From positions 1 through 45,736 of the forward strand of contig NGBS01000048.1 in NCBI GenBank assembly GCA_002245135.1: a DNA stretch of 45,736 nt. The letters run 5' to 3'. The stretch is from Proteromonas lacertae. Lineage: Eukaryota. This document shows positions 11,489 to 45,736 of the stretch, in pieces. Position numbers and translations under genes: made by a program. The notes below the pieces were generated by a model. That model was not told the origin of the DNA. It worked only from the letters and a program-made list of their open reading frames with translations, and made no database searches. Each line of letters starts with the position of its first letter. Positions within the stretch are counted from its first letter, which is position 1.

Positions 11489-13543
11489 ATGATCAGTCTA
11501 AATAGAGCATTTTTGAGTATATTATATATTTATTTCTTTTAATAGTTGTGTTTTTAGTATGTGTCATAATGACAAATGATTTAGTTTCTGCAACTTTTTG
11601 GTTTTCAGCATTGAAAGTAAGAAGTCAGACTTTCCCCACAGTAATCATGACTAATAATGAATTGGCATATATTGAAGGTATTTCTATAACAGAAGTGAAG
11701 AAGTTTGTATTTTTACTTGAAGAAACACATTATTGGGGTGAGAATACAATAGAATATACTGTAAATAAAACTCTAAATGATGATAAATCATTTTTTATGT
11801 TTTCAAGGCAAGATATTGAAATAGCCAAATCAGGTGGTAAAGAGTGTAGTATTACTATAAATAAAGAATATAAGTTGAGTGAATTACAAATAAAGTGTGA
11901 ATGTTTATATAATGATATAAATACGAGAATCTCAAATTTCAATAAAACAATAACTGTTGAAGAATTACAAGGTGATTTATATATATCGATAGTTAGTGGT
12001 ATAGCTGATACATTATCATCAGAAGTAGCTGATATACTTATTAATCTAATGAAAGTAAATCCAAAAACATATCCTGTTAAAACTCATTATTTCGAATATA
12101 AAATACAAAAATGGAATTTATATTACAAACAATAAGATAATATCATTTTTATTTAAATTTGATGTAGAAAGCAATAATCTGAATGGTAGTATAGAAACTG
12201 ATAAGATTATTAGTTGGGTTGATAAGAGTGATTATAGTGAAATAATAATAAAGAAATTAGGTGGTAATTCACATATTGTAACTAAGATATATTCATTATC
12301 TTCAGATTCCGATATTGTTCATTATAAAGGAATATATGAAACTGGTGATAATATATTTTTATCATTAGTGGGAGAATCGATGAAGGAAGAATATATGGAA
12401 GAAGAGATAGAACTTCGATTAACAAACGTTGTGGATAATATAAAATATAGTTATAAAAACGAAAAAAGAATGAGAATGAGAATGACATATATTAATGACA
12501 ACACACCAAACAAAATAATAAAAGCTAATGCTATTGACAATTGGTTTTATGAAGATGTGACAAATGAGTATTATAAAGGATATTTCATTTCTGGTGAAGA
12601 TTTTGCTTATGTTGAAAAAAGTAAATCAAATGATGCAAAAGTGTTAGAAAAGATATATGTTGAAAAGAAAATTGATTTAACAGTTGCTTCACCTACTATA
12701 ACACTTTCTGATACAGATAATGATATGAAAATAAATTTGAAAGAAACAGTTGCAGGTTGTAATGGTAAAACTGAATATAAAATGTATTTTTATCTGTTTT
12801 TATTATTATATTTAAATAGAGAAACAATAAAACAATTATGTCCAAGTGCTAATCCTAAATTCCAAGAAGTTATAATTGAATTTTCAAAATCAGGTGATAA
12901 GGTGAGTATGACAATATCAGGAAAAGTAAAAAACATGAAACAATCAACTATTAAACAAAACACTCAACTCATAAATTTGATTGGTTTAGAAACATATTCA
13001 ATACCAATTGGAAAATACATAACTCATGAAGAAAGATATGTAAATGATGTTAATATTCTTGAAGATCATTATTATAGAATATTTGAAAGAATAGAAATGG
13101 ATTTAAGTGAAAGTGATAAAGAAATAAAAGACTATATCAAATTTGGAATATTTTTGAATGAAAGAGAAGATGTTGGTGAAAATACTGAACTTGGTATATT
13201 ACATTTCTTCACAATACCTAATTTAAATAATAAATATATAATGCAAAGAAATTTAACTGATTTTTATGAATATGATAATGAATTTAATTCATATGTTAGT
13301 GATTTGGATAAAATGACAAATGATACAAATAATAAATTAGATTCTATAATCAATAGAATATTTGATTTTATGAAAGATGATGATGTTACAACGACTGCTG
13401 CTAATACAACACCTGATACATCTGATACAACTGCTGAAACAACAATAACCACAATTCCTGATAGTACAATAGATCCAGATAATGGATTTTGTTTTTCAAT
13501 GAATTTCTTATTGTTAATAATAGTATTTTTATTAATTATATAA
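11489..13543 (+). CDS. Uncharacterised secreted, probably GPI-anchored surface protein (paralog B)
   Basis: Spliced signal peptide MISLNRAFL|IVFLVCVIMT; Thr/Asp-rich stalk then DNGFCFSMNFLLLIIVFLLII*. Confidence 0.75.
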
Positions 13544-15881: not shown

Positions 15882-16169
15882 CCCAAATACTCAATACAAT
15901 GATTTAAAGGGATTTTAATGAAAATGTAATTCTATGTCAATATGACAAAATTACAAGATTATATTACATTTTCAATATTTCATATCCATTTCACGAGAAT
16001 TAAAATAATAACTGGAATTATTGATGAAAAGAGTATTTTCATAAATAAAAAGTGGTTGTTTCATGAGATTTTAGAAAAAGAAAATTCAAATTGAAGCTTG
16101 ATAATCACGATCTGATCTACTCTCAATTTTATCATTCAAAAAACACAATTGTTACAAGTCATTATTATT

Positions 16170-19100
16170 ATGAAGTCCTTTATACAAATATTTTTATGTA
16201 TATTTTAGTTTATTATACCCACTCATTTTTTATAAATGTTATATTTATGTATATTCTTATAGTTGTTAGCTTAATTGTTGTATTATGTACAGCATTTAAC
16301 TATGAATCAAATCATCCTCAATTCAAAAAGGATGTGACAATTGATGTTCTTAAACCTGATGGGATGGGGAATGGTAAATACACAGTATCTACTGATTTAC
16401 CAACTGGTTTATCGATTGATGAAACAACAGGATATATTTCAGGAATACCTACTACTGCAGGAACATTTCAACTTACAGTATTTTTTAATAAGAGAGAAGA
16501 TGATGATGATACATGTTCTTTGATGATATTCGGTATATTAAGTAAAATCTATAACTATAGTTCTGGATCCTCCTGTAATAAATTGTGGTGTTTCAAAATA
16601 AACATCTTATGCTTTAATAAACACTGAAATTGAATGTAGTTCAACAGGGAACATTCATGAGGACGATTGGTCAATAAGTCCAAATAATTTGAGAGGAGTT
16701 GAACAGAGAGGTTCTAGAATAGTATTTCGTAATTTTGATGCAACTCAATCTAGAACAATTACTGTAAGAGGTTCAAATGAAGGAGGTGAATCTTCTTATA
16801 AAATAGAGATAGTGAAAATTGAAAATCCTACATTATATGATGGAATCTATACAAGATTGAATGATTTAACCACAACTCCATGTGATCAATATTATGATGG
16901 AATTGAAGTATATAATACATTTCCAATAAATGGTGCAATGTCGAATCTTAATGATTTAACAAATCAAAGTCAATGGATTAAAAAATGGAATAATATTTAT
17001 TTCTCAGGTATTTTTACAACATTTAATGGAACTTTGGATGGATTTATTGATATTGAAACATCTGGTGAATATACATTTTATTTACAAACAGGTAAATCAA
17101 TGGGTGCTAGAATATATTTAGAAAATGAAGAGATATTATCAGATTGGGGTGAATGTAAAGAATGGAATGAAATACCATTATCAAAAAGTATAACCTTAGA
17201 AAGTGGTTTAAAAAGAGTATTTATAGAAATAATGGGTGGTGAAAGTTTAGATATGCATTTTGTATTTGACTATTCGACACCTGGTAGTAGTGAAAGAAAA
17301 ACAATTCCATTTAAGTATACTAAAGCTGAATTTGATCCTGTGATATTCTTAAATGTTGATGCTACATTGATTAGTTGGTTAAATGATGCAAATAACTATA
17401 CTCCACTTCATGTATTAAGAGGTGTTGCTGATAGTTGTTGGATAAGTAATGAAGTTGAATTACCAGAAGGTTCTGAAATTACAACTGATTATATAAAAAG
17501 CCATCCTCAAGAGAATATGGATTATAAAACCTATAAAATTAAATGTAAAAATTCTGATAGTGAAACAAATGAAATAACAATTCAAATTCGTGTAACTAGT
17601 AAAACATTACCTGGTGTGGTTGCTTATTATTATAAACCAAATAATTTTGACACATTATGTGAAACACGATATGGACCAACTACCAATGGACTTGAACCAG
17701 TTTATATTCAAAGACAAGAAAATGTAGAAATAGTTGAAACTGAAGATGATCCACATCCAGAAGGATTGAGTATTGATTTCTTAGATGATTATGCTGCTTA
17801 TTTTGAATCTTATTTAAGAATAAAAGATGATCAACCTGAAGGAGTGTACAATTTCCGAGTTCAGTGTGAAGGTGGTTGTTGGGTATATTTTAATAATGAA
17901 ATGGTAATAAATAAAGCTGGTCGAAATAGTTTTGATGATGCTTCTTATTTCAATTACACTTTGACATATGATTATTTATTGTATCAAGTATATTATTCAA
18001 CTCATAATGGTTATGCTAAAATTGATATTCAAATGAAATACTACAGTGATGAAAACTATGATTATAATATTCAAGAATATTATGTACCATCAAGCGATTA
18101 CTTTGTAATGACTCAAAGATATGCAACTTATATAAGTGGTCAAACTGTTAGTAATCAAGCAATTCCAGTAGAAAGTTTTTATTGTAAAAGTGTAACAGTT
18201 GAACCAACATTACCTGGTGGATTAATGGCTTTATGTCGAACAACTGCAATAATTGGCGGAACAATTGAATCTGATTTTAATCATGAAGTTGAAGAATATA
18301 CAATTACAATTGTTAGTACTGAAGATAATTCATATTCTTATCCAATTTATATAGGAATCAAAAGTATATTTTATAATGTAATTTAATCTAATAGCTTCTG
18401 CAACTCCAAGTGGATTATATATTCAAGATCTTGAAGCAGGAGAAATATATAAAGAAACAATTTCTTTAATAATTGGTAAATTTTATTCTTTACAATTTCA
18501 TATTGAACAAGGTTATGTTATATCATTTAGATTAGATAATATACCTGTTGGTTTTAGTTATGATTGGAAATCAAGTACACTTTCAGGTAGTCCAATAGAA
18601 GAATTAAATTCAGAATTACATATAGAAGCAATGCTTCGTCCATTTGATGGTGATAGAATGGAATTTAAATTTGGTTTAACAGCTACCAGTGGTTGTGAAA
18701 GTGGAAGTAGTATGCATGCATTTGTATTTTCATCTACTTTTAATAATGGTTATTTCACCTCTGTTACTGTTTTTGCTTCGAATGGAACAATGATTATTGA
18801 TTATAGAAACTATGAGACAGTTGATTTACCTTTTACACTCAGTCAATGTATTCCAATTGATGTCTATACAATTTACACTAATGCATTTTATGCTTATACA
18901 TTTACAGTATATAATAATGGTGTTAAAGTACATAAATCTTCCCATAATAGTTACGAATCTGCTAATATTGTTTTAAATACAAGTATATATTTATATAAAT
19001 AATAATAATAATATAGAACCAGTTTTACCAGTTTTCAATTATTCATCATCCAATGTTACTATATATTTAGGTAATGAAATATTAGTGAACATTATGAATC

Positions 19101-22100
19101 AATCAATCCAACTGCACTACCTGATGGAATTCTATTTGATAATATAACCGGTAGAATATATGGAAGAGCAAGAAGTTTAACAAATTCAACGAAATATACA
19201 ATTACTGCTACTAATGGCAAAGGAAAAGCTACATTTGATATGTTAGTGCATGTAATACCAAATACTGAAGAAGATGATTGTGAAAATGCTGAAAAGTTCT
19301 TATTTGGTTTAAAAGTATCCGTTCATAATCATATCCAGAAAGAGTAAGTTATGAATTGATTGATTCAAATGGGAATATTGTATTTAATCAAATTCAAGGT
19401 ACATTTGAAGCTAATACAGACTATACAATTAAAATGTGTCTTACAAAAGGATGGTATACATTAAGACTTAGTTGATTATACAACTTATGGTTGGGGTGGT
19501 TCAACAGCAACATTATTTGCAGGTGATTCAGTGATAGGAAAATATACTTTGGCATTGTATGAAGGAAAAAAGGATATAACAATGGATTGTATAAATATAA
19601 ATTTATTATTATTATTATATAGTATCTTATCTTATGGATACACATACTAAGTGGGAATATAGTCAAATGTATCAAGAAAATTGGATGTTAAATAATTTTA
19701 CTTCATCATGGCCATCATCTAGAATAAATGAACTTAATAAAGCTACTTCATCTAATCCAACTTATTACTTAAGATATCCATTAATATTTAGTGATTATAA
19801 TAAATATTCAGGATATTTTATTAGATTTACTCATAAATCTGGTGTAATTATAAGAATAAATGGAAGAGAAATATTCCGAGATAATTTAGGAAGTGGAGAT
19901 ATTAATCAAAACACTCAAGGAGACAGTACATATGAAATACCACAACAAGATAAATTTATATTACCAATAGATGATTTAAATACTACAGCCATTATATCAA
20001 TAGAAATTCATAGATCTCCAACTGATGAAAATTTCCCAAATGAGGATAAATTCTTTTTATTTCCATTAGATGGTGATGATGATGAAGATTGTATTCTAAT
20101 CACTTTATATGGAGGAGGTATTGCATCTTCATCAAGTGAATCTTATTGTAAAGGATATAATTGTGCTGATGCTGCATTTGATATTAATGATGATACAGTT
20201 TGGCTGGATGATTATGGTACAGTAAGTGGTCAATCTTATGCTGATTATACATTTGGTAGAAATAGTTATTATTCGTTTAATCAATTTAAAATAGTTAGTA
20301 AATTATTGTCAAATTATAATTATCCAACCCAAGTGTCACTAACAGGGAAAGTTGGATCAGTAACATACAATTTAGGAGAAATGAATCCAGTATCTTATTT
20401 TGAATTAAAAAAGAATAAACCAAGTATTGCTACATTTAATGTTGATCCTTATACATTATACACAGGTGTTAGAATTGATATACCAAAATCCAATCAAGGA
20501 TCTAGTACTTCTAAAGGAATGAGAGTAAATGAAATTAATTATCGTTTATGTCGTAATAAGAAATGTCCAACAAATATAGCTCAAGAGCTTCCTGAAGGTG
20601 ATTCGAATACCTTTTTCAAAAGCAATTGTTCTGGTGGTGGATTAGGTGAAAGATATTTTTATTGTTCAAATTATGCTGTTTGGGTAGAAATTAATTCAAC
20701 ATGTAATGAATTACCAGTTTTTATTACCTCCCTAACAACTATCTCTTTAGATGCAGGTCGTTATTATACAAATGAAGCAATATTTGAAGTATCTGGAAAT
20801 GTAGACACATATGGATTTATATGTTCATCATGTTCGAATGGAGAATTTATCCCAGGAATGGAATTTAGCACATCTACTGGTTTATTAACTGGAATGGCAT
20901 ATAAAGGTGCTACATATTCAATAACATTTACTGCGCAAAACAGTTATGGGATTGGCAATAAAACAATGACTATAATCGTTGAACCCAACATCTGATCTTC
21001 TTGTTTGGAATTATACTGGTGAAGTAAATATGATAGTGTATAGTGAATACAACGGATTACAAATTTTGTGGGTAGAAAGTCCAACTTCTGTTATATATTC
21101 TGCAATAACTCTTCCATATGGTCTTAAAATTGATTCATCAAGCGGTTTAATTAGTGGAAAGCCAACAATAGTAGATAATAGTATGTATTCAATAATTGTT
21201 AAAAATTCAAATCAAGAAGTAATAAAAACTATAAGATTTATAATTGATTTACCTGATGATCCAGTTGTTGCAAATAGTGATGATAAATTAGAATTAATTT
21301 ATATGTACAAATATGATGCGCATTATCCATTATTATGTTATGCAAAAGAATTAACATATAATGTAAATAAAGATTTACCAAAAGATCTAACTTATGATAA
21401 AATGACTGGTTTAATGAGCGGAAGAGTTACTGCTTCAGTTCAATCAGCTGAAACTTATAGCATTTTCATGCCAAGCTAATGGTCATACTATTTCAAAAGA
21501 TATTCCAGTTTCAATCGTAGTTTCTGATATTCCAATTTTAATAAGTAAAAATGAGTCAGTAACAGTAAAAGCAGGTGAAGAATTAAACAATGTATTATAT
21601 TTCACAGTTAGTGGTTCAAATTTAGTTTACTCAATTAGTCCTTCATTACCATCAGATATTTCAATGAATGAAAAAACAGGAGCTTTTAATGGTTATGCCA
21701 AATCTGAAAGTAGGTCAACAAATTATACAATAACAGTATCAAATGGAAAAACTATTTCATTTACAATGGCATTTACTGTTGAAAAGAATGATGGTCCAGT
21801 AATTCCTGATTCAACAGTAATAAAAGAGTTATCAGTAGCAACAGGAGTAGTAGTTTCAGTAAGACTATTTGAAGTAATTGGACATGGATTAAGTGTTACA
21901 ATTGTTCCTAATTTACCAGATGGTTTTACATTGTCTCATTCCGGATATTTGCAAGGTGTTGCAGTTTCTGATGTCGAATCTAAAGAATATCTAATTACAT
22001 TGACAGATGAAGAAGGGAAAACAGTATCAGTAACCATTACATTAAAATTCGTTGCTAAAAAATGTCCTGCTAATGATGGTTTTCCTGAAACAGTAATTGG

Positions 22101-22383
22101 TGAGCAAACTGTAATGAAATGTGGAAATGGAAAAAATGGATTTATAACAAGAAAATGTCTTTATGTAGATGGAGATGCTGTGTGGCAAATTCCAATTGAC
22201 GAATGTTCTTCAAGTATTGTTGGCCCATTAATTGGAATTATTATTGGTTGTGTAATTGCTGGAAGTGTTTTATTTTTAGCTGGATATTGTATATTTGTTA
22301 GATTTGGTGTTAGAACTAAGCATGTTAGAAAAACAACTGAACAAATAATAGATACATCTAAAGATACTGGTGTTAGAGTATAG
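16170..22383 (+). CDS. Large (~2000 aa) type I membrane protein with multiple putative Ig repeats, two PA14-like domains, galactose-binding-like and HormR-like modules
   Basis: Signal peptide; repeated LP.GL.ID..TG.ISG.P motifs; PA14-like GFIDIETSGEYTFYL..GARIYL and YLRI..GVYNFRVQCEGGCWVYFN; GVIIRINGREIFRDNL; CP..DGFPET..G....KC...G..TRKC....W....C; TM IVGPLIGIIIGCVIAGSVLFLAGYCIFV; short tail. Fragments join by introns or single-base shifts (about 20985, 21463). Confidence 0.85.
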
Positions 22384-32886: not shown

Positions 32887-34643
32887 CATTGTAGTCAGTG
32901 TATTATTGGTAAAATTATCCTTAAAATCTTAAAATCAGATAATTTTCTATATTATTATTTTGTATTAATATATTTCACATTTATAATTATCTATTCATTA
33001 AAGAGTTTTAACACACATACCACCTGATTTTGAAATTTGATTTTCTTTTTAATGTTCTTTATATCCTCTTTAATAATCTATCTTGTCTATTCTTATATTC
33101 TTCAGTTATTTTCTTTGGATAAACTCTCGCTAAGTCTTTATATTCAGTCACTCTCCATATTAATCCTTGATTATTACATAACAAGCCAAACCTTTCTAAT
33201 TTTGATTTTTCATATAATACTGTATTTTCACCTGGTTTATCATTCCCTGCAAATTGTTTTTCATAATCATCTCTATCGATAACAAATGCTTCAACCCATG
33301 ATTTTGGTACATCTAAATATTCAGGTTTTTTAGCTTCACTTAAATCAGTATCTTTTGCATTACTTAAATTAATTGTTCCAGTACCACTTGCTGATGTTGT
33401 TCCTCCAGCACTACTACCACCACTTCCAGCTGCATTACTATTTTCACCATTTCCACCACTTGCTGATGCTGTAGTTGTTGCTGTTGCTCCAAGATTTAGT
33501 TCATCTTCTTCATCTTCTTCATCTTTGGTTTTAATTGCATCTTTTAATTCACTTATATCTGGTTCATAAAATACATTTCTATAATAATAAATAAATAAAT
33601 ATATATATATACTCCCAAATATCACGATTTCTTAAATTAATACCAGTACTATTTAATGGAATCTCATCTTGCATCACCTTCACCCACACATTCTCATTAT
33701 TCCAACAAAATAACATCTTTTCATACGGACTTTTATCTATATCATATATAAATCCAGTGGAAGGTTCAATAAAGATATGTTTTTCCACACTTCGTTTACC
33801 TGCTTGTACCATTACCCAACAGTGTATTCGTTTACCTGCTAATAAATCTTCTTCTTCTTCAGGATATTCTTCATCACTCTCATTTTCATCATATATTTTC
33901 TTTCTTCTTTCTTCTTCCTCTTGTTCTTTTTGTTTTTCCAATTGGAATAAACTATTTTCATATCTCTTCTTTGGTACTTGATAAGGACGATCTGGATCTT
34001 CATCTTCTTTCTTTTCTTCTTTTAATACTTCTTCAGTTTGTAATAATGGACATGTTTGTTTTAATAAGTTCTTTTCAGTAATGTACTTGGGAGCTATTCC
34101 ACATACACAATATGCATCTACACCACTGCCTAATAGTAATGAACATAATAAAACACTCATATCAAATGAATCACCTCTTCGCCATTTTAACACAATTTCT
34201 GGACTTGGTAAGTATTCAAGGTATCTAACTGGATTTTCTAATGGTTCATAGGCTAAGAAATCTGCTAGAAATACTGCAGTCTCTCTTATATCATACAAAC
34301 CACGATATGGCATTTGAGTTGGTCTAATTGTGGTACATATTTATTTTTGAACATCATATTCATTTAGTGGGAATAGCAATACTGGAGGTTTGTCAGGGTA
34401 TAATCTTTTGTATTTTGTATCGAAGTTTTGAACATATCTATGCAACAAATGATTAATATAATTTTTAAATACTCTAAAGCAAGTTCTTCTTTGAGATTAT
34501 TGGATATGTATCTTGGAGGTAAGTCATCTGTCTTTTTTAAAGCTGCAATACGAAGAGTCTTTTGAAAAGGTAGCTCTACAGAAAATATCAAATAATATAC
34601 GTCTAATTTTATAATCTTGCTGCTCTTGTTTCCCCTTTTTCAT
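32887..34643 (-). CDS. DRC7: Dynein regulatory complex subunit 7 (CCDC135), N-terminal half only; truncated or degenerate
   Basis: ICTTIRPTQMPY..LY....AVFLADFLAYEPL..P...LPSP..VLKW..GDSFDMSVLLCSLLLGSG.DAYCVCG, RIHCWVMV..GKR....IFIEPSTG, WNNENVWV, LDVPKSWV; reading degrades after RQDRLLKRI near 33060. Confidence 0.85.
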
Positions 34644-34745: not shown

Positions 34746-36780
34746 ATGAATCAGGATAGAACACTTTATTGTGAAAATCAAATCAAGCAGGAAATAAAAT
34801 TCTTGGTGTTAAATCCTAAAATGGATATAGTTTGCGTTGTGACTGTTTCTAATCAAATTTCTTTGTTTGTATGTTTTTAACAGTTATATGTTTTAGAGAT
34901 TCCCATCATTTGAACAAATTAGTATAATTAAAAGAAGTGAATTAGGAGGGGGAGAGTGTAGTTGCTGTATTTGGTCTTTTGATGGTATTAGATTATGTAT
35001 AGGAAATGATAAAGGTAGAATATCCATGTACAATATTGAAACATGTAAATTTGAATCAATATTATTCAATAATAATCACACTTCGAAAATCACTTCAATG
35101 TTATGGATAGAATCAGATATAAAGGTTCAAAATATAGATTACCTAATACTAAGCACTAATATTCCAGAATTAAACATTAATAATCATCAGAATACAGCAA
35201 AATCACTCTCATATTTAATAATTGGAGATGAAGTAGGAAATATTTCATTTATTCTTAATGGAGTTTATTTATTGATAAATTTACAACTAAATTCTCAAAT
35301 AAACAATATCATATTATCTCCTAATAAGTTATATATAAATACAGAAAAGAATCTATATGGTTATAATTTGGAATTTCTACAGAATAATAATTATATTTTA
35401 CATATTGTATATTCTAATAATTATTTAATATTTTTTCTAATTTTTATTAATAGATGTCTAGTAGACTTCCTTCCATTACAAAGATAATTAATCATATGAA
35501 AGATACAATTAATTCAATGAAAAGTCAATGGGAAATAGGAATTAATTCATTAAATGAAAAAATGAATGATTTTCAAACAATTATTACTAATTTTATATCA
35601 TTCTTTTTATTCTTATTTATTTTTTATTAATTTCTTTAATTTTTACAAGGTTCTGATTATTCTGTGAAAGAATATTTATGGAAATTATATTGTACAGGAA
35701 TTATTGATGATTCTATCTCTCAATTCTTCAATACAAAACTCTCAGCAATTGAAGCAAAGAATCTATACATTGATATTAATAGTTTAATAGATAAAATAAT
35801 AAAATCATTTCAATATGATATATATAAGAATTTAGAGAATATTTTATTAATCATTTCATCAATAAAGTCTTACACTGAATCTACCAATAATAATAATAAT
35901 AATAATAATGGTTTATACAATAACAATACAATAACTCAATTCATTCAATTAATAAATGATTTTGGTAAGACAATATATGATTCAATTGATTATATATTCA
36001 AATGTAAAGAATATTTTAAGATATTATTTGGATGGATTATAAAACAGGCAAAACAAGTATATTTATATATATTGTTATCTCTATATCTATATATAGATAA
36101 GTAATGACAAAACATCAGATGATATAGCAATTCCACAAATAGATTCCTCACTAGTGGAAATTGTTTTATATTCAAATTCAGAAATAGAAAGTGAGAAATT
36201 AATGAGTTATAAATCATTCTTTTATTGTAGTATTGATGATTATTTTATAACATTCAATGAAATGATTAAACAGCTTGAGAATCAAATAGAATTAATCAAT
36301 TCTGAACCACTAAATAAATGCAATTCAATGATGATAGAATCATTGAATATTAATCCGTTATGCAGTAATCTATGTAGTGTAAATGATAGGGATAATGATT
36401 ATTTATATTTATTATGTGATAATGATGAAAATTGCTTGTTGCTATTATGTATAGATTATCATACAAATCATGTAATAAAATACACTTCAATTCAGTTAAA
36501 AGAATACTCTATTATTGTTGATTATACAGTTAGTATGAAAAGAAGAGAAGTGTATATAACATATGCTCAGTCAAATGGAAATAATCTTGCAGTTAATAAT
36601 ATAGAGAATATGAAATGGGTTGAAATTAACAACAAATTAAATGATTTGGATTTTTCATCACTGAATTGGGAGTTGAATGAAGTTCATATGAATTATGAGA
36701 TAGGTGAATATGAACATATTGCCGGAAAAAGAGATTATTTAGCAGTATCATCATCAAACAACATTCAAATATATAAATAA
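34746..36780 (+). CDS. ANAPC4: Anaphase-promoting complex subunit 4 (WD40 + helical domain)
   Basis: LNPKMDIVCVVTVSNQISLF|RF, CIWSFDGIRLCIGNDKGRISMYNIE, LIIGDEVGNI...LNG, QWE, LWKLYCTG: the APC4 motif order. Confidence 0.8.
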
Positions 36781-36812
36781 TTATTCTTTTTATTGTATTT
36801 ATATTCTAACTA

Positions 36813-37047
36813 TTAAGGAAGTGGAATTTTATCACCATAAAGTTCAGATAGAACAACTGCTGTTGCAAATACTACAACTGTCACTACACTTTTTATCTAA
36901 ACTATGTCAATTCGAATATATACATTCTTATATGAAATAAATCCAAATTTTGTCTTTATTCCAGATTCTTTAACTGGTGCACTAGGCAATCCACCTCCCA
37001 TCCTATTATGGTATTATTATTATAGAATACATATTTGGCATCATCAT
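36813..37047 (-). CDS. 59-aa single-TM protein, Tom6-like candidate (three exons; not in ORF track)
   Basis: Exons 37047-37031, 37002-36924, 36896-36813 with 28- and 27-nt GT-AG introns give MMMPNMMGGGLPSAPVKESGIKTKFGFISYKNIKSVVTVVVFATAVVLSELYGDKIPLP*. Confidence 0.7.
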
Positions 37048-37152
37048 TTTTCAAAAATGAAATTTTATCGAAAATTTAAAATTGGGGTATGAAAACAATA
37101 AATATTAAACAAGTTTAAATCAACGTACATTTGTAATTTATTCAATTGCTTA

Positions 37153-37591
37153 ATGAAGCGGTTCTGTTTAATCTTATTTTTCTCATATTTGTTAGCTGTT
37201 TGTCCAAATTATTGTAGTGGACATGGTAAATGTGGTGAGAATGGAATCTGTGAATGTAACAAACAGATTGGCTTAGCTTTGAACAAAGGAAGTTTTTTAA
37301 CATATTTGTACACAGGCGCCGATTGTTCTCATCGTATCCTTATGTTGTATATAAATTGTATTAGGAACTTGTCCAGTAGGAACACCTTTTGGAGCGTTTG
37401 AAAGAGTTGAAAAATTACGAAGTGAGGGTGATGATGGATGTAGCAGTGCTCCTTGTAGAAGAGCTTTAAGTCAAAATAATTACAGATTTTTACAAGAAGA
37501 TTCAACAGCAACTCAATCCTCAGAAACTACAGCAACATCATCAATTGCAATACCATATATTATAGAGGATATGAATAAACAGGATATTTAG
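37153..37591 (+). pseudogene. 5' portion of a secreted EGF-like (tenascin/Sig1-mastigoneme-type) gene, apparently interrupted
   Basis: Signal peptide, CPNYCSGHGKC..CEC..YTGADCSH|RTCPVG.PF, S/T-rich linker, then TAG at 37589-37591 just before the element-like block. Confidence 0.65.
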
Positions 37592-37734
37592 TGTTCCTAT
37601 ACCCAAAATATCCAGTTCTGTTGAATAATTTTGCGGAAAAGTTCTACATCATAATCAGTATAGCTGTACAAATCTATAGTTTTTCTCTACAGTAGCAAAG
37701 CCCCGTAGTAGAACAGCTCACTACATCTATAAGT

Positions 37735-37752
37735 CACTAACCCTAACCCTAG
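37735..37752 (+). repeat. Short telomere-like repeat CACTAA-CCCTAA-CCCTAG
   Basis: Directly visible; matches (CCCTAA)n over 15 nt; no other such tract noticed in the window. Confidence 0.8.
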
Positions 37753-37953
37753 TTAGATCTATTTAATCATTATTATGTAATTATTTTTTTATAATATTTG
37801 ATGCATAAATCATCAAAAACATCAAGAATTTATCAAATGAATGATAAATCATCAAATAAATCAATTTTATTTTAACAATATAAAAATTGCATCTTGAATT
37901 CATTCGACATTTTCCTGAACTTTTCAGCATAAAATATTTTTTGCTTTATTAAC

Positions 37954-38685
37954 ATGTCTCACTTACATCAAATTGTTTACGTATCTGATAGTGATACAGA
38001 TAGTGATTATGAGAGAGATATTGATAGTATCTCTAATCCTAAAATCAGAAAAATTTGTAAGACAATTTATTTAGAAGATAAGGCTGCTGGTATCAAAAGA
38101 CCAAAATATAGTATAACTTATATTATATTATAATTTATAGGTGTACCAGTAACAGGTGCTTCATTTAACCCTTTTAATCCATACAGGTCTTTATCCATCA
38201 AAATTGAGTCACCCAATGGTGAGCCACCAAAAGAAAAATCACCATTATACTCACCAACAACTCCACCTGATACAGAATCAAATGTTAGACGTTTAATTAA
38301 CTCTACTGTTCAAGAGCCTCCTCTACCACCACCAATTGTTGCTCATTATGATTATCATCCTGAAGAGCCTCCAATGGTAATTGCATCATTCAGTACAAAT
38401 TTACCAGATAAGGACACCTTAACTTATGAAGAGATAAAGAAGCTGAGAAATGAGAGCTTAGTTGGTAATCGTATTAGAAACGGAAGAAAGAGAGTAAAGG
38501 CAATTAGAGAAGATTTAAGCTTTAAAATAGCAGCTGATGTAAACTTGTCAATGGACTTACAAAGATATTATGATGTAATGTTTAAGAAGAAGGAGTTAGA
38601 AGATAAGTTGTTTAAGCATCATAACCTAGAAACAAAACTCTTAAAGAAGATCACCAAGAAGGTATTACAAGATAAAACTAATTAG
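37954..38685 (+). CDS. Element hypothetical protein (Pro-rich middle, basic helical C-terminus) with one 30-nt intron
   Basis: MSHLHQIVYVSDSD..KRPKY then intron 38111-38140 (GTATAA..TTATAG) restores the frame into ORF 38374..38685. Confidence 0.75.
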
Positions 38686-38852
38686 TTATTAATTATTAAT
38701 ACTTTCTTTGATTGAATTTTGTTTTTTTATTGGTTGATTAAAAATAACATAAGCCAATAAATTAATCGAAAATCCAAGTGTTTTTTAACACTATAATTTC
38801 GATAAGATTTTCATTTGAAATTTTCTTGCTTCTTTTTTTTAAAAAAAAGACA

Positions 38853-39365
38853 ATGAATAACTCTAATATTGATAATATATATAGAAAATGTAGCACATGT
38901 AATCATAAGTATAAAATAGAATTATTTGGTAAATATAAGAATGGTAAATATCATAAATGTTGTAGAAGGTGTAGAAATATAACTAAAATACATGATAGAA
39001 AAGTTAGAGAATATTTAAAGTTAATTCCATTACCAATAAATAATAAATCAGTGAAAAAATGTAGCACTTGTTATAAAATATGTAATTTAGATAATTTTAA
39101 GAAGAATGAAGATGGATCTTATAATAAAACATGTAATCATTGTAGAGAGATTAATATAAAAAATAGATTAAAAAGATATAAAGAAGCTATAGAATCTCAT
39201 ATAAAAAATGAATCTGTGAAACAATGTAGTTACTGTTTTAATGAATATAGTTTAAATTCCTTTTATAAAAAGAAAGATGGTTCATATTTTAAATTATGTC
39301 CTAATTGTATTTTTAAAGCAAGAGAACGATATAATCAATTAAAAAAAATAAATGATAATCATTGA
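38853..39365 (+). CDS. Element protein with three CxxC..CxxC zinc-ribbon repeats
   Basis: KCSTC..F..YKNGKYHKCCRRCR; KCSTC..F.KNEDGSYNKTCNHCR; QCSYC..F.KKKDGSYFKLCPNC; true ATG at 38853. Confidence 0.8.
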   Translation: MNNSNIDNIYRKCSTCNHKYKIELFGKYKNGKYHKCCRRCRNITKIHDRKVREYLKLIPLPINNKSVKKCSTCYKICNLDNFKKNEDGSYNKTCNHCREINIKNRLKRYKEAIESHIKNESVKQCSYCFNEYSLNSFYKKKDGSYFKLCPNCIFKARERYNQLKKINDNH

Positions 39366-39456
39366 ATTATAAATATCGATTTTTATTGGGTTTTTCATAA
39401 TTTATCATTTTACTTTCATTTTCATTTTTCTTGCTCTTTTTCTAAAAATATAAAAA

Positions 39457-40155
39457 ATGAGTTATTTTGAAGATGAAAATATAGAAGGATTAAAAACATG
39501 TTGTCGTACATGTGGCACTATATACAATCTTTATGAAATGGGAAGAAAATCAAATGGTTCTATATATAAAACTTGTATAGCATGCAGAGAAAAATTACGA
39601 TTACAGTATAAAAATAAAAAGGAGTCTGTTCCATCTTTATCTGAAGAAAAAGGGTTAATTAGTAATCCATATTTATCAATTAATGATGAAATTGATAGAA
39701 CAAGATTTGCTAAGTGTGGTAAGTGTAAGAAGATGTTTAGACTAACTGATTTGACTAAAAATACTAAAACTAATGAATATTTTCATCAGTGCAATCAGTG
39801 TAGAGCATATTGTAAGTGTTATAAGAATTTATTAAAACAAAAGAAATCAATTCTTAATTTAATGCATGAGGTATTTCAGTGTAGATGCTGTTCATTGTTC
39901 TATGATAATGATTATTTAGGTAAAGAAGAATTAAATGATAAAGTTATGACATTTTTATGTAAAGGTTGTCTTAGATTTAAGTTAAGATTAAAAACATATA
40001 AAAATTTATATAAAGATGAAGTTATAAGTGATAGTCAACTGATGAGATGTTATTATTGCGGTATGTTGAGAAAAAAAGAAATAATGACTTATCAAAACAT
40101 TTGTAATATCTGTATTAAAAAATACCATCATTGTTTAAAAAAACATTCAATATAA
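39457..40155 (+). CDS. Element protein with four CxxC..CxxC zinc-ribbon repeats
   Basis: CRTC..KSNGSIYKTCIACR; CGKC..EYFHQCNQCR; CRCC..CKGC; CYYC..CNIC. Confidence 0.8.
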   Translation: MSYFEDENIEGLKTCCRTCGTIYNLYEMGRKSNGSIYKTCIACREKLRLQYKNKKESVPSLSEEKGLISNPYLSINDEIDRTRFAKCGKCKKMFRLTDLTKNTKTNEYFHQCNQCRAYCKCYKNLLKQKKSILNLMHEVFQCRCCSLFYDNDYLGKEELNDKVMTFLCKGCLRFKLRLKTYKNLYKDEVISDSQLMRCYYCGMLRKKEIMTYQNICNICIKKYHHCLKKHSI

Positions 40156-40225
40156 TTTTTTTGTTAAATATATAGTTATTGTTTTATTTAGGTATTTCTT
40201 ATCATATTAGAGTTAAAAATATATA

Positions 40226-40573
40226 ATGAATATTTCATCAAATACATCTTTAATGAATTCATTAAAAGATGTATCAACTACAATTGATTCACTTAAAAAT
40301 GAGATGTATATAGTATTATTTTTGTTAGGTTTATGGGTTTTAAATAAAATTAAAAAAATATGTGTGTATTTATATCGGAGACATTGCCCAGAAGATATAT
40401 CAAAAATATTAGATGAACCTGTAACACCAATAACAACAATACCAATGTCGACTTTTATGACTAGATCAATGCCTCCACCTTCACCAAAAGTATCAAGAGT
40501 TCATTCAAATAGATCACTTAATACATATATAGAAGATATTGATATAGATATGAATGAAAAAAAGAATAATTAG
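40226..40573 (+). CDS. Small single-pass membrane protein (element)
   Basis: Hydrophobic MYIVLFLLGLWVL followed by basic residues and a Pro/Thr-rich tail; intronless. Confidence 0.6.
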   Translation: MNISSNTSLMNSLKDVSTTIDSLKNEMYIVLFLLGLWVLNKIKKICVYLYRRHCPEDISKILDEPVTPITTIPMSTFMTRSMPPPSPKVSRVHSNRSLNTYIEDIDIDMNEKKNN

Positions 40574-40705
40574 TATATAATATATATATAACTTATATAA
40601 TAGATATAAAACCCAAAACAAAACAAAAAAATAATTCAATTCTTTAAAGTACCTTTTTAATATAAAGATAAGGTATAACTTAACAAAGTGTTTTTTATGA
40701 TTTGT

Positions 40706-42306
40706 TTATTGTAAGAAATCATCAAATATACTACCATCATAAGCTGGACTAAATTCAATATCATCTGGTTCATTAGTGATTATATTACCATCTTCATCAA
40801 AGTTTAATTCAGGATTTTCTTCTTTTAATTTTTGTACATATACTTTTTTTAAAGCAGCTATTTGCTTTTCCAATTCATTCTCATATTCCAATTTTCGTTT
40901 GAAGACATCATACTGAACTTGACCTGAATTCTTTACAATTGTACCAAACGGTTTTGGTACAATCTTTACCAAAGGTTTCGGAGGTAATGGTGGTGGTAGT
41001 GATTGATTTATTATTGGTGGTGGTTCATTAATTGAAACATCTATTTTCGGAGCTATCGGTTTTAATGATGGTTGAATAAATCGATTTCTTGTTGCCCAAT
41101 TGTGTTTGGTATAATGTTCCGGTTCTGATTTTGCTTGCTCTATTTCCTTTATAGTATTCGGATTAATGATACTTTTTGGTGTACTAATATTATCATCATT
41201 ATCCTTAGATTTATCTGTTTTTGATACATCAGCAGCTTTTGGTACATCAACCATTTTATCAATAACCTTTACATCAACAACTTTATCAACCTTTTTATCA
41301 GCAATAACTTTAGCTACATCATCCTTTTTATCAACAACTTTTGGTGCATCAACAACCTTTTTATCACTAACCTTTTTATCATCAACCTTTTCAGCATCAA
41401 CAACTTTATCAACCTTTTTATCAACAGTAACTTTAGCTACATCAACCTTTTTATCAACAACTTTTGGTACATCAACAACCTTTTTATCACTAACCTTTTT
41501 ATCATCAACCTTTTCATCATCAACAACTTTATCAACCTTTTTATCAGCAGTATCTTTAGCTACATCAACCTTTTTATCAACAACTTTTGGTACATCATCA
41601 ACCTTTTTATCAGCATCAACTTTAACATCCTTTACATTATCAACCTTTACATCATCAACAACTTTAGCTTTTACAATGTTTATTTTAATGACTTCATTAT
41701 CATCATCTTCAAAATCATCATCTTCACATACCCAGTCTGTTTCTTTATCATTTAATGCTTCATCATTTAATTCTTTGAGACTCTTTTAGCCTTTTTAGCA
41801 GATGGTTTCCTTGTAACAACTTTACGAATTTTTTTAGGTTTATCATTAGTATAAATATCTACATTATCATTGTTTGATTTTCTCTTTACACCACCTAATA
41901 ATTTTACATCTGAATCAAAGTTGTGTCCAACAGCATATGGACTTATTGATAAAACATCATCTAGACCTTTAAAGACATTAGCATTTACATAAGACGGATT
42001 TTTGTTAATACAACTAAAGAAGTGGTTTATTGCTTCTGCATACTGGATGACTGATGTTAAAGATAATAAACTTGGTGAATTGGAATAATGAATGTATTTA
42101 ATTTTATCATCACAAAAATTTATTATATGTGATGATAACATTTTAATCTTGATCCATTCTTTTACATCTATGGCATTGTAGCTCTTTCTACTAAACCACT
42201 GAGCTATACCTTCATGTTGCTGAGACTTCTTAACAACTTTTGATGTTTTTGATAAAGAATTTTCTTCTTCAACTCTTGGTGAACTGTGCTTAACACGAAT
42301 ACTCAT
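40706..42306 (-). CDS. Element protein (~530 aa) with V/D/K-rich tandem repeats; one apparent frameshift near 41775
   Basis: ORF 41767-42306 continues after a one-base shift into ELNDEALNDKETDW..(VDKK repeats)..MVDVPK, i.e. ORF 40706-41254. Confidence 0.7.
41272..41610. repeat. 123-bp (41-codon) tandem repeat, about 2.7 copies
   Basis: Unit starts CATCAACAACTTTATCAACC at 41272, 41395 and 41518. Confidence 0.92.
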
Positions 42307-42497
42307 TTTTTAAAAAGTAAATGCGAAATAAGTGATGAGAAAATAGGAAATGAAAAATGATTTCAGAATCAAGAGAAACCGTTTTTATAGAAATGTTTGA
42401 TGATTTCAAGCTTAATTTAATAAAATCAAAAATATTAAATGATATAGTTAATTTAATTTTTTATTTTTATGTATATCTTGAATTAGGTCTTATAGTT

Positions 42498-43630
42498 CTA
42501 CCCAAAAGAACTCTTTCTTATGTTTTTAGGTACAACATATGCTACTATATCATTTTTATCACTATCATTTTTGTTTGAATTTATGCTTTTTATTGCACTT
42601 AATCTAAATCTACCTTTAGTTTTAATTGCATTCTTAATTTTTCTTAATTCATAAGGTTTAAATTTAAATAATCCAAGGTTTTTAGGATTAAATTCAGAAG
42701 GAATTGATCCATCTATATTCTTTAATGAATAAGAAAAAGGTGTCTTTTTATCAATCATATAAACTTTATCACTAAAATATCTGCTTTTATCTAATTTATT
42801 TCTTCTTCTCTCTTTAACTCTAACATATTCATTTTTATTAAATTTAGTATCTTTAATCTTCGTTCTTTATTTCTTTGCCTTGATTCTTTATAAAACAAAT
42901 CTTGTAATTCAAAATCATTATGAACTTCATTTGGTGTATACCCATTAAGCGAACTATGTGGTTTTGAATTATAATATAATACTACAGTATTTACTATATT
43001 AATTAGACCATTAAGATTATTTAATTTATTAAATTCTTCATCATCTAAAGTATTTAAGTATCTATAGAACATATTTTTGATAGTTCTTACTGCACTATCT
43101 AGTATCTTCATTATATTATGTTCATCAGTATCTTTCATTATAAATCTAATATTGTTTTTATTAAATAGCTGTAAGAACTTATTACCATATATCACACCTG
43201 ATTCTTGATCCATTAAAATAGAACCTACAAATCTAGCATTTTCATCAGTATGTGCTAAATCTTGATAAAACCATTTTTCAAATACTGGAAATACGCTTGA
43301 TTCAGTTTTACTTTTAACATAATATATCCACACTTTTCTACTAACTACTTCAATAATAAATAAAAAAGGTATGTTTGTATTATTGAAAAAAATAATATCC
43401 ATTTGATATGAACCAGGTATCTTTTCTATCTCATACTTTATTTTTATTCTATTTTTAACTGCTACTTGATAATCTGGTTTTGATTCAACTAACTCTTTAG
43501 CAGTTCTTGTTATATCAGGTTTTGAATACTTTGATGATAATTCATCAACACTAAATTTTATAAAATCACTTTTATTTAAATAACCAAAGTCTTTATATAA
43601 TTCATTTATTTTATGTTGTAAATCAGACAT
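42498..43630 (-). CDS. Retroviral-like (rve) integrase of Polinton/Maverick type; one apparent frameshift near 42853
   Basis: YQMDII..FLFIIEVVSRKVWIYYVKSK..LMDQES..F..NNI..HNIMKILDSAVRTIK..YNSKPHSSLNGYTPNEV, then after the shift FNKNEYVRV..FSDKVYMI..YSLKNIDG..FKPYELRKI. No N-terminal HHCC, no adjacent RT/RNase H. Confidence 0.9.
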
Positions 43631-43678
43631 TTTATTTAAAAAATAAACAAATATATAATAATAAAGAATTATAATTTT

Positions 43679-45736
43679 TTATTTTTTATGATGTCTATCT
43701 TTAAGCCACTTATAATATAATTCTATATCTGCTTTACTTAAACGACATCTAGTAGGATCAATACCATTACTTAAAATTGTATTAAAAAATTCTTCTCTTG
43801 CTTCATCACTACTAAATCTTAATGTATGTAATTGTGAATTATTATTTATATCATTATCATTTCTAATAGGTTTATAAAAAGTATTATCACCTACAGCCAT
43901 AATTGAATCTGGATCATCATCATAATCTTTTTCTTTTTCAGTATTTGTTACTGTAACTAATTCTTTATTATTTGTAGCTGCTACCTTCATTTTGTTGATT
44001 ATTAACTAATGTTATATCAATTTTTCTTCTTTTGTTAATACTTTTTGTTTTAACTTTTTATTATCATCAGTAATAAAATCTTTGTTATAATATTTTGAAT
44101 TTTTACGTCTCTCATCATTACTTCTTAATACTCTACCTGGTAATGGTGGTGGTGGTTCATTAATTAATGTTTTCTTTCTTCTTACAGTTTTCTGTTTTTC
44201 AGACTCTTCTAATTCTTTTAATCTTATTTCTTTTAATCTTTCTCTTCTTGCTGCTTTTTCATCTCTTGCAAGTTTTTCTTGTAATAATTTTAATTCTTTT
44301 TCTTTCTTATCTGCCTCTGAAGCATTTTTTATTGTATGAAGAATATTATTAATAACTTCTGTTGTTTTTATACCCACCATTTTTAACTACATCAATTGCT
44401 TTAGATGTAAGATTTATAAAATCATTTAACATATTTCTTCCATTTTCTTCTATATTTATATAATGATTTTGAATAGTAGGTTGTGGTGGTGGAGGTTCTT
44501 CAATTGGTTGAGTCTCTTGTACATTAGAAATATCTAAAGGAGGAACTTGATGATGAGGTACTGGTAGTGACGGTGGTAGTGGTTCTTGAATAGGTAATGG
44601 TTCTTGTATATCTTCTATATCATCTTCTATTTCATTATTGTTATCATGAAGTGATATAGTAGGAATTTCAAATGTTTTACTACTTTTATTTTTCTTACTT
44701 CTATTATATTTTCTTTTCTTATTTTTATAAAATGAATAAGTATTTCCATCTTCATCTTCATAAACCATCATCATTATAATCTGTAATAAAATCTTTATAT
44801 TTTGATGGCCTTTTTTTAATTCTTTTACCTAATAATGAATCATCTGTATTTGTTTCTACATCTCTAGTAACTTCATTTACAGTATTTGTTGATTCATCAT
44901 TTATGAAATAGTAAAGGACTAGTTGATTCATCATTTAATGAAATAGATATAGGACTTGTTGATTCATCATTATGTGGTGGTGGGGCAGGATGATTAATTA
45001 TTATAGGTGGTGGAGGATGTATTTCTTGTTGGCTTTGTAATTGTTCTAACTGGTTTTCTAATTTCTCAATTTCAAACAAATATGTATCTCTTTCTTTTTC
45101 TAATTCATAAATTGTTTGATTCATTATTCCTCCTTGTTGAGATATTTGTATTAACTGTTCATTTATTTGTTTTGTATATTTTTTTAATTCTTCTTGTAAT
45201 CTTTCTCTCTCACGTATTTCATCTTGTAATTGATTTTCTATTTCTCTTTGTCTATTTATATTATCATTTGGTTCAATATCTATATTATTTCCCATTATTA
45301 ATCTGATTCGATGATTATTAGAATTTATAATATTAGTTGAATCACTAAGAATTAATGAATTATCATTATTATTAATTATTAAATCAGTTGATCCGTTATC
45401 TATAAATGTTCTTGAAGGTGTATTGTTTAACGAAACAACTAAAGGTTGCATATCATTACTAGGAGGGAATATTACTCTTAATCTTCTATTAACTGTATCA
45501 GTTGATGTACTAGTATCTGATACTGATGGAGGAGGTTCTTGTATTTCTACATCATCATATCTTTGATGAATTAAATCTCTATTTGTATATTGATTTATTA
45601 TTATGAGGTCTTGTACTAGTTAATATTCTTCTAGGTGATCTAACAATTGAATCTATATGATTTCTATCATTAACTATTCCTATATTTGGTATATCAGTTG
45701 ATGTACTAGTATCTGATACTGGTGGAGGAGGTTCTT
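43679..45736 (-). CDS. Long Pro/Asn/Glu-rich coiled-coil element protein, fragmented by several frameshifts; starts beyond the right edge
   Basis: ORFs 44897-45451, 44349-44774, 44012-44380 and possibly 43679-43990 overlap or abut on one strand and share EPPPP motifs; joining is inferred. Confidence 0.5.
45496..45736. repeat. 45-bp direct repeat (45496-45540 and 45692-45736, one mismatch)
   Basis: TATCAGTTGATGTACTAGTATCTGATACTGRTGGAGGAGGTTCTT twice; encodes EPPPSVSDTSTSTD-like peptide on the minus strand. Confidence 0.92.

What the first reader, a model, noticed from the sequence alone, without database searches (positions are those of the whole stretch)
37592..45736. Large integrase-encoding Polinton-like or virus-like element with mostly orphan cargo
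Intron-dense host genes give way abruptly to over 8 kb of nearly intronless ORFs in two converging blocks: four plus-strand genes, then minus-strand repeat proteins and a Polinton-type integrase. It interrupts a host gene and has a structured left end. None of the cargo looks like canonical Polinton core genes, so it may be an undescribed family of endogenous DNA virus or giant transposon in this protist lineage.
Basis: partly seen in the sequence, partly recalled or inferred. Interest (0 to 1): 0.88.

Follow-up and report, generated by a model that had tools for sequence, protein, structure and literature searches.

The report
Virus-like element splitting a protist gene
An 8-kb block of tightly packed genes, including a stand-alone retrovirus-type integrase, cuts off a host gene in a single-celled eukaryote and is likely the left arm of an integrated Polinton-like DNA virus, a known kind of element, whose polymerase and capsid genes would lie beyond the sequence available.

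Summary
The insertion is real. A host EGF-repeat gene matches only residues 1-137 of 779-782-aa homologues and stops at a TAG at 37589-37591. After it comes an 87%-coding, intron-poor block that runs off the window. The block holds a stand-alone rve integrase with an intact D-D-D triad and no HHCC finger or RT. Its closest relative is 75% identical and intact, and a distant relative sits 5 nt behind a protein-primed polymerase. No polymerase, ATPase, capsid or protease gene was detected in the 8.1 kb, and the right end, TIR, TSD and copy number could not be tested. The 'structured left end' is not supported (z -0.29). The frameshifts are probably assembly errors, since a host gene shows the same kind. 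The minus strand likely has four genes, not eight. New details: a host-type intron in gene 1 and a shared initiator-like motif before 4 of 7 genes, suggesting nuclear transcription. The host is probably a flagellated relative of Blastocystis, a group where Polinton-like capsid genes are already reported. Verdict: most likely a new member of a known kind (about 0.68); a capsid-less giant transposon is not excluded.

The parts
37153..37591 (+). 5' part of a host secreted EGF-repeat gene (exon 37153-37333, 31-nt intron 37334-37364, exon 37365-37591), ending after 135 codons at a TAG that overlaps the element's first bases
   Evidence: Homologues P0201-P0203 are 779-782 aa and match only residues 1-137; intron read from the sequence
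37584..37589 (.). ATATTT, predicted target-site duplication if the element starts at AG 37590 and duplicates 6 bp
   Evidence: Inference; the right end is not in the window, so untested
37590..37953 (.). Non-coding left end beginning AGTGTT; candidate terminal inverted repeat
   Evidence: Sequence; no inverted partner among the longest inverted repeats of the window; not more folded than shuffles
37737..37751 (+). 2.5 telomere-like CCCTAA units; role unexplained
   Evidence: 1 match in the window, 0.01 expected, pattern chosen after seeing it
37954..38685 (+). Gene 1, 233 aa, with a 30-nt GT-AG intron (38111-38140); acidic start, Ser/Thr-Pro-rich middle, basic helical end; likely a nuclear regulator
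   Evidence: Intron joins two open frames in phase; upstream motif at 37900; no family hit; function inferred from composition
38853..39365 (+). Gene 2, 170 aa, three paired-CxxC zinc-ribbon repeats; likely DNA-binding
   Evidence: 6 CxxC; PHROG 2255, N-terminal part of HNH endonucleases, E 9e-7; no homologue among 18 candidates; upstream motif at 38811
39457..40155 (+). Gene 3, 232 aa, four paired-CxxC repeats; paralogue of gene 2
   Evidence: 8 CxxC; 27% identity over 111 aa to gene 2, E 7e-5; upstream motif at 39416
40226..40573 (+). Gene 4, 115 aa, predicted single membrane helix and Pro-rich tail
   Evidence: Hydropathy 1.78 from residue 29; no convincing family hit
40706..42306 (-). Gene D, probably one gene of about 530 aa with a frame shift near 41786: helical N-terminal part, basic stretch, three 41-aa Asp/Val/Lys repeats, Pro-rich and helical end; possibly a DNA-condensing core protein
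   Evidence: Frames overlap; 123-nt x3 repeat, 93%; single-sequence model unusable, pLDDT 38.7; upstream motif at 42360 and 42353; function is a guess
42467..43630 (-). Stand-alone rve integrase, about 385 aa: D78, D141, D178, C-terminal beta domain, no HHCC finger; frame shifts near 42850 and 42500 in homopolymer runs
   Evidence: 75% and 69% identity of the two main pieces to intact P0001; D78 and D141 invariant in 18 of 18 aligned; model of P0001 matches retroviral, MELD-virus and mavirus integrases
43679..43990 (-). Gene B, 103 aa, unassigned
   Evidence: ORF; no convincing family hit
44012..45736 (-). Gene A, probably one long low-complexity, Pro-rich, coiled-coil repeat protein (over 570 aa, start outside the window) broken by several frame shifts
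   Evidence: Five overlapping ORF pieces whose frames read on into each other; 62-nt repeat 196 nt apart; only coiled-coil-type weak hits; the joining is inferred

Best explanation
The block is likely the left 8.1 kb of an integrated Polinton-like DNA virus that probably used its own stand-alone rve integrase to insert into the second exon of a host EGF-repeat gene, which is cut off after 135 codons. Shown: the truncated host gene, the dense intron-poor gene block, and the integrase with its catalytic triad. Inferred: the integrase joins the ends of a linear genome with terminal inverted repeats to staggered cuts in host DNA, leaving a 5-6-bp duplication. The replication enzyme, packaging ATPase and capsid genes lie further right. 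The left arm carries accessory genes. Genes 1, 2, 3 and D share an initiator-like motif 41-54 nt before their ATG and gene 1 has a host-type intron, so they would be transcribed and spliced in the host nucleus as an early set. The frame shifts are probably assembly errors, so the copy may be intact.
For: Host gene truncated at the block edge. The best 150 of 1,887 integrase relatives are 131-539 aa, median 370, none over 600, so none is a Gag/RT fusion. No HHCC finger in the 12 nearest relatives examined, a feature of Polinton integrases (PMC2836005, passages). The only relative fetched with context (L001, 25% identity; profile probability 99.3) starts 5 nt after a pPolB gene. In the viral fold search the MELD-virus integrase has the highest identity of the 50 matches shown, 18%. 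The end begins with AGT, like Maverick ends (PMC8097293, passages). Insertion into exons is common for such elements: 13 of 22 sites in PMC8547959 (passages). A private cluster of 285 Polinton-like capsid genes is tabulated for an Opalinata flagellate (PMC10120064 supplement rows), and a MELD virus with polymerase and integrase for Blastocystis datasets (PMC8502044 section 3.4). Frame shifts of the same kind occur in a host gene at about 19100, 20990 and 21460, and PMC10120064 (section 7) reports them as common artefacts.
Against: No polymerase, helicase, ATPase, capsid or protease detected in 8.1 kb. L001 lies outside the 14-row clade that holds this integrase, so its context transfers only loosely. 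No member of that clade could be fetched with flanks (searches confirmed no locus; the single locus is outside the clade). The end AGTGTT is not one of the repeated Maverick motifs (AGT)2 or (AG)3. There is no GC contrast with the host, unlike many endogenous virophages. The promoter motif has a 1-nt spacer, not the published oomycete 2-nt one. With the 2-nt spacer only 2 of 7 genes match at one mismatch or fewer, and an unbiased shuffle test gives only 8 of 500. The host lineage is inferred, not tested by phylogeny.
Confidence: 0.68

Rival explanations
1. A capsid-less giant DNA transposon, or an internally deleted derivative of a Polinton-like virus, that moves by its rve integrase alone and carries lineage-specific cargo.
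For: The integrase is the only recognisable mobility gene in 8.1 kb. GC is matched to the host and one gene has a host-type intron. The integrase clade is distinct (SH-aLRT 100, quick tree).
Against: Known rve cut-and-paste transposons (Ginger1) are 2.6-7 kb, have a zinc finger and start TGTNR. This element exceeds 8.1 kb, has at least 8 genes and no HHCC. Dense head-to-tail genes with 22-191-nt gaps are virus-like.
Confidence: 0.18
2. A piece of a larger endogenous DNA virus (Nucleocytoviricota-related, mriyavirus-like or similar) that happens to carry an rve integrase.
For: Zinc-ribbon repeat and low-complexity repeat genes are common in large DNA viruses (recalled). rve integrases occur in mriyavirus-like clusters (10.64898/2026.06.19.733378, passages).
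Against: No large-virus hallmark gene in three family libraries. The integrase lies 5-6 kb from a sharp end.
Confidence: 0.06
3. An assembly chimera: a host contig wrongly joined to a repeat or to an unintegrated element.
For: The assembly appears noisy (indels in host and element genes). The rest of the EGF gene is not in the window. No reads could be laid over the junction.
Against: The join falls at an AG-starting non-coding stretch followed by a complete first gene with its own upstream motif, as expected of a true element end. No repeat is shared between the two sides among the largest repeat families.
Confidence: 0.06
4. Ordinary host genes, or the remains of an LTR retrotransposon.
For: Most top fold matches are retroviral or LTR integrases. 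TGT at 37592 resembles an LTR start. Composition equals the host's.
Against: The integrase has its own ATG, no HHCC and no upstream RT or Gag frame. Its relatives are stand-alone. Intron-like motifs are at chance level in the block. No cargo ORF matches the host part of the window.
Confidence: 0.02

Closest known systems
Polinton-like viruses endogenous in protists, including the capsid cluster tabulated for the Opalinata flagellate Proteromonas lacertae (PMC10120064; 10.64898/2026.07.28.741278)
   Same: Stand-alone rve integrase, dense gene block inside host DNA, many unassigned genes, probably the same host group.
   Different: No capsid, ATPase or replication gene seen here, so the link to that capsid cluster is untested. 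No GC contrast. One spliceosomal intron.
Blastocystis MELD virus (PMC8502044, section 3.4)
   Same: Integrase-bearing mid-size element from a gut stramenopile whose virion genes were not recognisable by sequence. A MELD-virus integrase is among the fold matches.
   Different: That virus has a pPolB; none is visible here. The sequences were not compared directly, and the MELD integrase matched is not labelled by host.
Maverick/Polinton elements of animals (PMC8097293)
   Same: rve integrase without HHCC; end starting with AG; two gene modules on opposite strands.
   Different: None of the other seven conserved genes detected; end motif not (AGT)2 or (AG)3; TSD untested.
Endogenous mavirus-like virophages, EMALEs (PMC8547959)
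   Same: rve integrase, insertion into host exons, element-specific promoter motifs.
   Different: EMALE genes have no introns and differ in GC from the host. The mavirus integrase is only a distant fold match (14%).
Ginger1/Ginger2 DNA transposons (PMC2836005)
   Same: Integrase-like transposase without RT.
   Different: Ginger1 elements are 2.6-7 kb with a zinc finger and TGTNR ends; this one is longer, multi-gene and lacks the finger.

Membership tests
Polinton / Polinton-like virus | Stand-alone rve integrase with catalytic triad and no HHCC finger | tested here: met
   third acid is Asp rather than Glu, as in most of the 18 aligned relatives
Polinton / Polinton-like virus | Replication gene (pPolB or primase-helicase) | tested here: inconclusive
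   None detected in the 8.1 kb seen; the element runs off the window
Polinton / Polinton-like virus | Double-jelly-roll major capsid protein, penton, A32-like ATPase | tested here: inconclusive
   None detected in the 8.1 kb by family scans; visible ORFs are short, Cys-rich or low-complexity; the rest is unseen
Polinton / Polinton-like virus | Terminal inverted repeats and 5-8-bp target-site duplication | not testable with these tools
   Right end outside the window; no genome held
Polinton / Polinton-like virus | Length about 13-30 kb | not testable with these tools
   Only a lower bound of 8,147 bp
Polinton / Polinton-like virus | Inserted into host DNA with a sharp boundary | tested here: met
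   Host EGF gene cut off at 37574-37591; not confirmed by reads
Vertebrate Maverick | End motif (AGT)2, (AG)3 or (AC)3A | tested here: not met
   End reads AGTGTT against PMC8097293
LTR retrotransposon | Integrase within a Gag-Pol polyprotein with RT, HHCC finger | tested here: not met
   Own ATG, short unrelated ORF upstream, no HHCC, relatives stand-alone
Ginger1 transposon | TGTNR end, zinc finger, 2.6-7 kb | tested here: not met
   TGTTC at 37592, no finger, over 8.1 kb
Virophage (mavirus-like) | Virophage capsid, penton, ATPase, protease; dependence on a giant virus | not testable with these tools
   Morphogenesis genes not in the window; the intron in gene 1 argues for nuclear expression (inference)

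The most novel reading that the evidence does not exclude
A lineage-specific class of giant (over 8 kb), multi-gene, nucleus-transcribed DNA elements of gut stramenopiles that move by a D-D-D rve integrase yet carry neither a polymerase nor a recognisable capsid: cargo-laden integrase transposons, or viruses with an unrecognised virion module, with their own early promoter motif and host-type introns.
Probability: 0.12. Interest if true: 0.75.

Novelty: new member of a known kind. Interest (0 to 1): 0.42.

Why it matters
If right, it gives a first look at the gene content and an exact insertion site of an integrating DNA virus in a gut-protist lineage. For that lineage the papers I saw report only capsid-gene counts or one assembled virus. 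It shows such an element cutting a secreted surface-type host gene. The intron and shared upstream motif give testable hints that it is expressed in the nucleus without a helper giant virus. As a kind of system it is known.

Tried and rejected
No genome is held, so copy number, right end and TSD were not testable. No sequencing run was listed, which says nothing either way. Integrase queries found no confirmed locus in viral contigs, genome contigs, phages or PDB sequences (one irrelevant hit at E 0.3). Cargo: gene 2 had no homologue in the 5.8-billion set or in phages; the N-terminal piece of gene D and gene 3 had none in viral contigs (exact-peptide seeds, low sensitivity). Genes 1, 4, A, B and the repeat part of D were scanned against family libraries and the 30 fetched loci only. 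The Atlas gave no result. The model of gene D's N-terminal piece had pLDDT 38.7 and was not searched. A 15-base left-end pattern gave 29 viral loci, none with an extended match or a related ORF: chance. No Rfam match in 36500-45736. A terminal hairpin was considered: a 14-of-17 palindrome at 37578-37617 spans the junction, but folds at only -4.5 kcal/mol and 77 other sites in the window fold as well, so I do not rely on it. Blastocystis in the strict sense was rejected as host because the window has flagellum-associated genes that Blastocystis is reported to have lost. Decay of the element was rejected as the default reading of the frame shifts. Earlier-findings look-ups by place and sequence were empty.
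Full report
OBSERVATION. The window is AT-rich throughout: 26.9% GC left of 37590 and 25.5% right of it. Host genes carry short introns. A strict GTAT..TAG motif occurs 48 times in 37.6 kb against 12 simulated, but only 5 times in the last 8.1 kb against 3.8. That block holds four plus-strand genes followed by minus-strand genes and is 87% coding under my gene models. It runs off the end of the window, and no genome is held.

THE INSERTION. The gene starting at 37153 encodes a hydrophobic N-terminus and an EGF-like domain. A search with its second exon among longer proteins gave 3 hits of 61 candidates, 779-782 aa long. They match the window over residues 1-66 and 69-137 only; their remaining 640 residues, with further EGF repeats, have no match in the window. 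In the window the frame ends after 135 codons at TAG 37589-37591. Similarity ends at 37573, and an intact gene would not have this stop, so the junction lies between 37574 and 37591. AG at 37590 is the simplest end (inference), which predicts ATATTT as the duplicated target. A weak palindrome across the junction is not exceptional.

THE INTEGRASE. The ORF from 43630 gives only a sub-threshold Pfam rve hit. It has 3 relatives among 401 candidates, at 75, 43 and 40% identity. The closest, P0001, is an intact 390-aa protein that covers both main window pieces, so these are one gene with frame shifts near 42850 and 42500. D78 and D141 are invariant in 18 aligned sequences, and the third acid is D178. 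A model of P0001 (pLDDT 61) matches retroviral intasomes, a MELD-virus integrase and the mavirus integrase. A profile search found 1,887 relatives at E 0.001; the best 150 are 131-539 aa and none exceeds 600. The 12 nearest examined lack an HHCC finger. In a quick tree of 72 rows the window's protein lies in a 14-row clade with SH-aLRT 100 and no bootstrap. Rows: the window, L001, four close relatives and hits P0028-P0100 of at least 300 aa; P0101-P0175 were left out. The 13 clusters looked up carry no names: 12 Logan, 1 ENA. The one relative with context, L001 (1 of 184 candidate stretches), begins 5 nt after a pPolB gene but lies outside that clade.

CARGO. No element ORF reached a curated family cut-off; PHROGs gave only short or coiled-coil matches. 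Genes 2 and 3 are paralogous zinc-ribbon repeat proteins; gene 2 resembles the N-terminal part of phage HNH endonucleases (E 9e-7) and has no homologue in the large protein set. Gene 4 has one hydrophobic helix. The eight minus-strand ORFs probably reduce to four genes (A, B, integrase, D), because neighbouring frames read on into each other, mostly at homopolymer runs. A host gene at 16067-22383 shows the same kind of break (judged from frame continuity, no homologue test). PMC10120064 section 7 reports such breaks as common artefacts. I therefore do not read them as decay.

EXPRESSION HINTS. Gene 1 has a 30-nt GT-AG intron that joins an ATG at 37954 to the downstream frame. Genes 1, 2, 3 and D, but not 4, B or the integrase, have a TCATT...WTTT.C motif 54, 42, 41 and 47-54 nt before the ATG. 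With a pattern built from the oomycete INR and FPR definitions and a 1-nt spacer, 4 of 7 genes match at one mismatch or fewer, against 63 of 1,978 ATGs in the window. That spacer was chosen after looking; the published one is 2 nt (PMC3599244, passages), with which 2 of 7 match. An unbiased shuffle test gave 8 of 500. None of 9 guessed host upstream regions had the motif at one mismatch or fewer. This is modest evidence for an element-specific early promoter read in the nucleus.

HOST. Introns of about 30 nt recall Blastocystis (PMC12129017, abstract and passages). But the window has a CEP76-peptidase-like gene and a sperm-type CH-domain gene, which I label DRC7-like and SPEF1-like from recall, and Blastocystis is reported to have lost its cilia genes. 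A flagellated Opalinata-like stramenopile is my inference; it was not tested by phylogeny.

MECHANISM. Most likely (0.68) this is one arm of a Polinton-like virus. By established retroviral-integrase chemistry (recalled), the enzyme processes the 3' ends and joins them to staggered target cuts, leaving a short duplication; here the target was an exon. Replication and virion genes would lie to the right. Rivals: capsid-less giant transposon or deletion derivative 0.18, piece of a larger virus 0.06, chimera 0.06, host or LTR genes 0.02.

COMPARISON AND NOVELTY. It works like a Polinton or PLV; membership is unproven, since only the integrase and the insertion criteria were met and the rest could not be tested. 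Polinton-like capsid genes are tabulated for an Opalinata flagellate: 285 genes in one cluster (PMC10120064 supplement rows; also mentioned in 10.64898/2026.07.28.741278, passages and section 7). A MELD virus is described from Blastocystis datasets (PMC8502044 section 3.4). Searches listed no paper whose title or abstract start describes the gene content of such elements in this lineage. Subscription papers, figures and bioRxiv supplements were not visible. Also seen as passages only: PMC2836005, PMC8097293, PMC8547959, PMC12835684, PMC4409740, 10.1101/2023.08.22.554363, 10.1101/2024.03.23.586382, 10.64898/2026.06.19.733378. Verdict: new member of a known kind, interest 0.42; the novel case has probability 0.12 and would merit 0.75.

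Noticed in passing
window 37737-37751: CTAACCCTAACCCTA, 2.5 telomere-like units inside the element's left end; unique in the window, 0.01 expected by chance (pattern chosen post hoc).
   Followed up: partly
window 37578-37617: Imperfect 14-of-17 palindrome across the junction; weak, but terminal palindromes are reported for some endogenous virophages and PLVs. If real, the end would be at 37578.
   Followed up: partly
window 16067-22383 (+): Very large host gene that looks like a membrane-anchored Ig-like repeat surface protein (label by eye, not scanned), with apparent 1-nt breaks near 19100, 20990 and 21460 and an in-frame stop near 16600.
   Followed up: partly
window 33579-34313 (-) and 5529-6236 (-): Flagellum-associated genes (CEP76-peptidase-like, probably DRC7; CH_2 domain, probably SPEF1) in a genome with Blastocystis-like short introns.
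   Followed up: partly
window 7386-9544 (-) and 11506-13543 (+): Unassigned AT-rich ORFs, two ending in a hydrophobic tail, possibly a lineage-specific surface-protein family.
   Followed up: no
window 42467-42510 (-): The integrase tail and those of several relatives end in an Arg-rich R-x-x-R/K-P motif; a nucleosome-binding role is a recalled possibility, untested.
   Followed up: no
L001 2-5139: GC-richer metagenome contig with a pPolB gene directly followed by an rve integrase: a Polinton-like fragment.
   Followed up: partly
P0030 cluster: Many of the 15 listed members are fragments (78-257 aa) beside full 435-aa copies, suggesting broken and intact copies coexist in a related lineage.
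   Followed up: no
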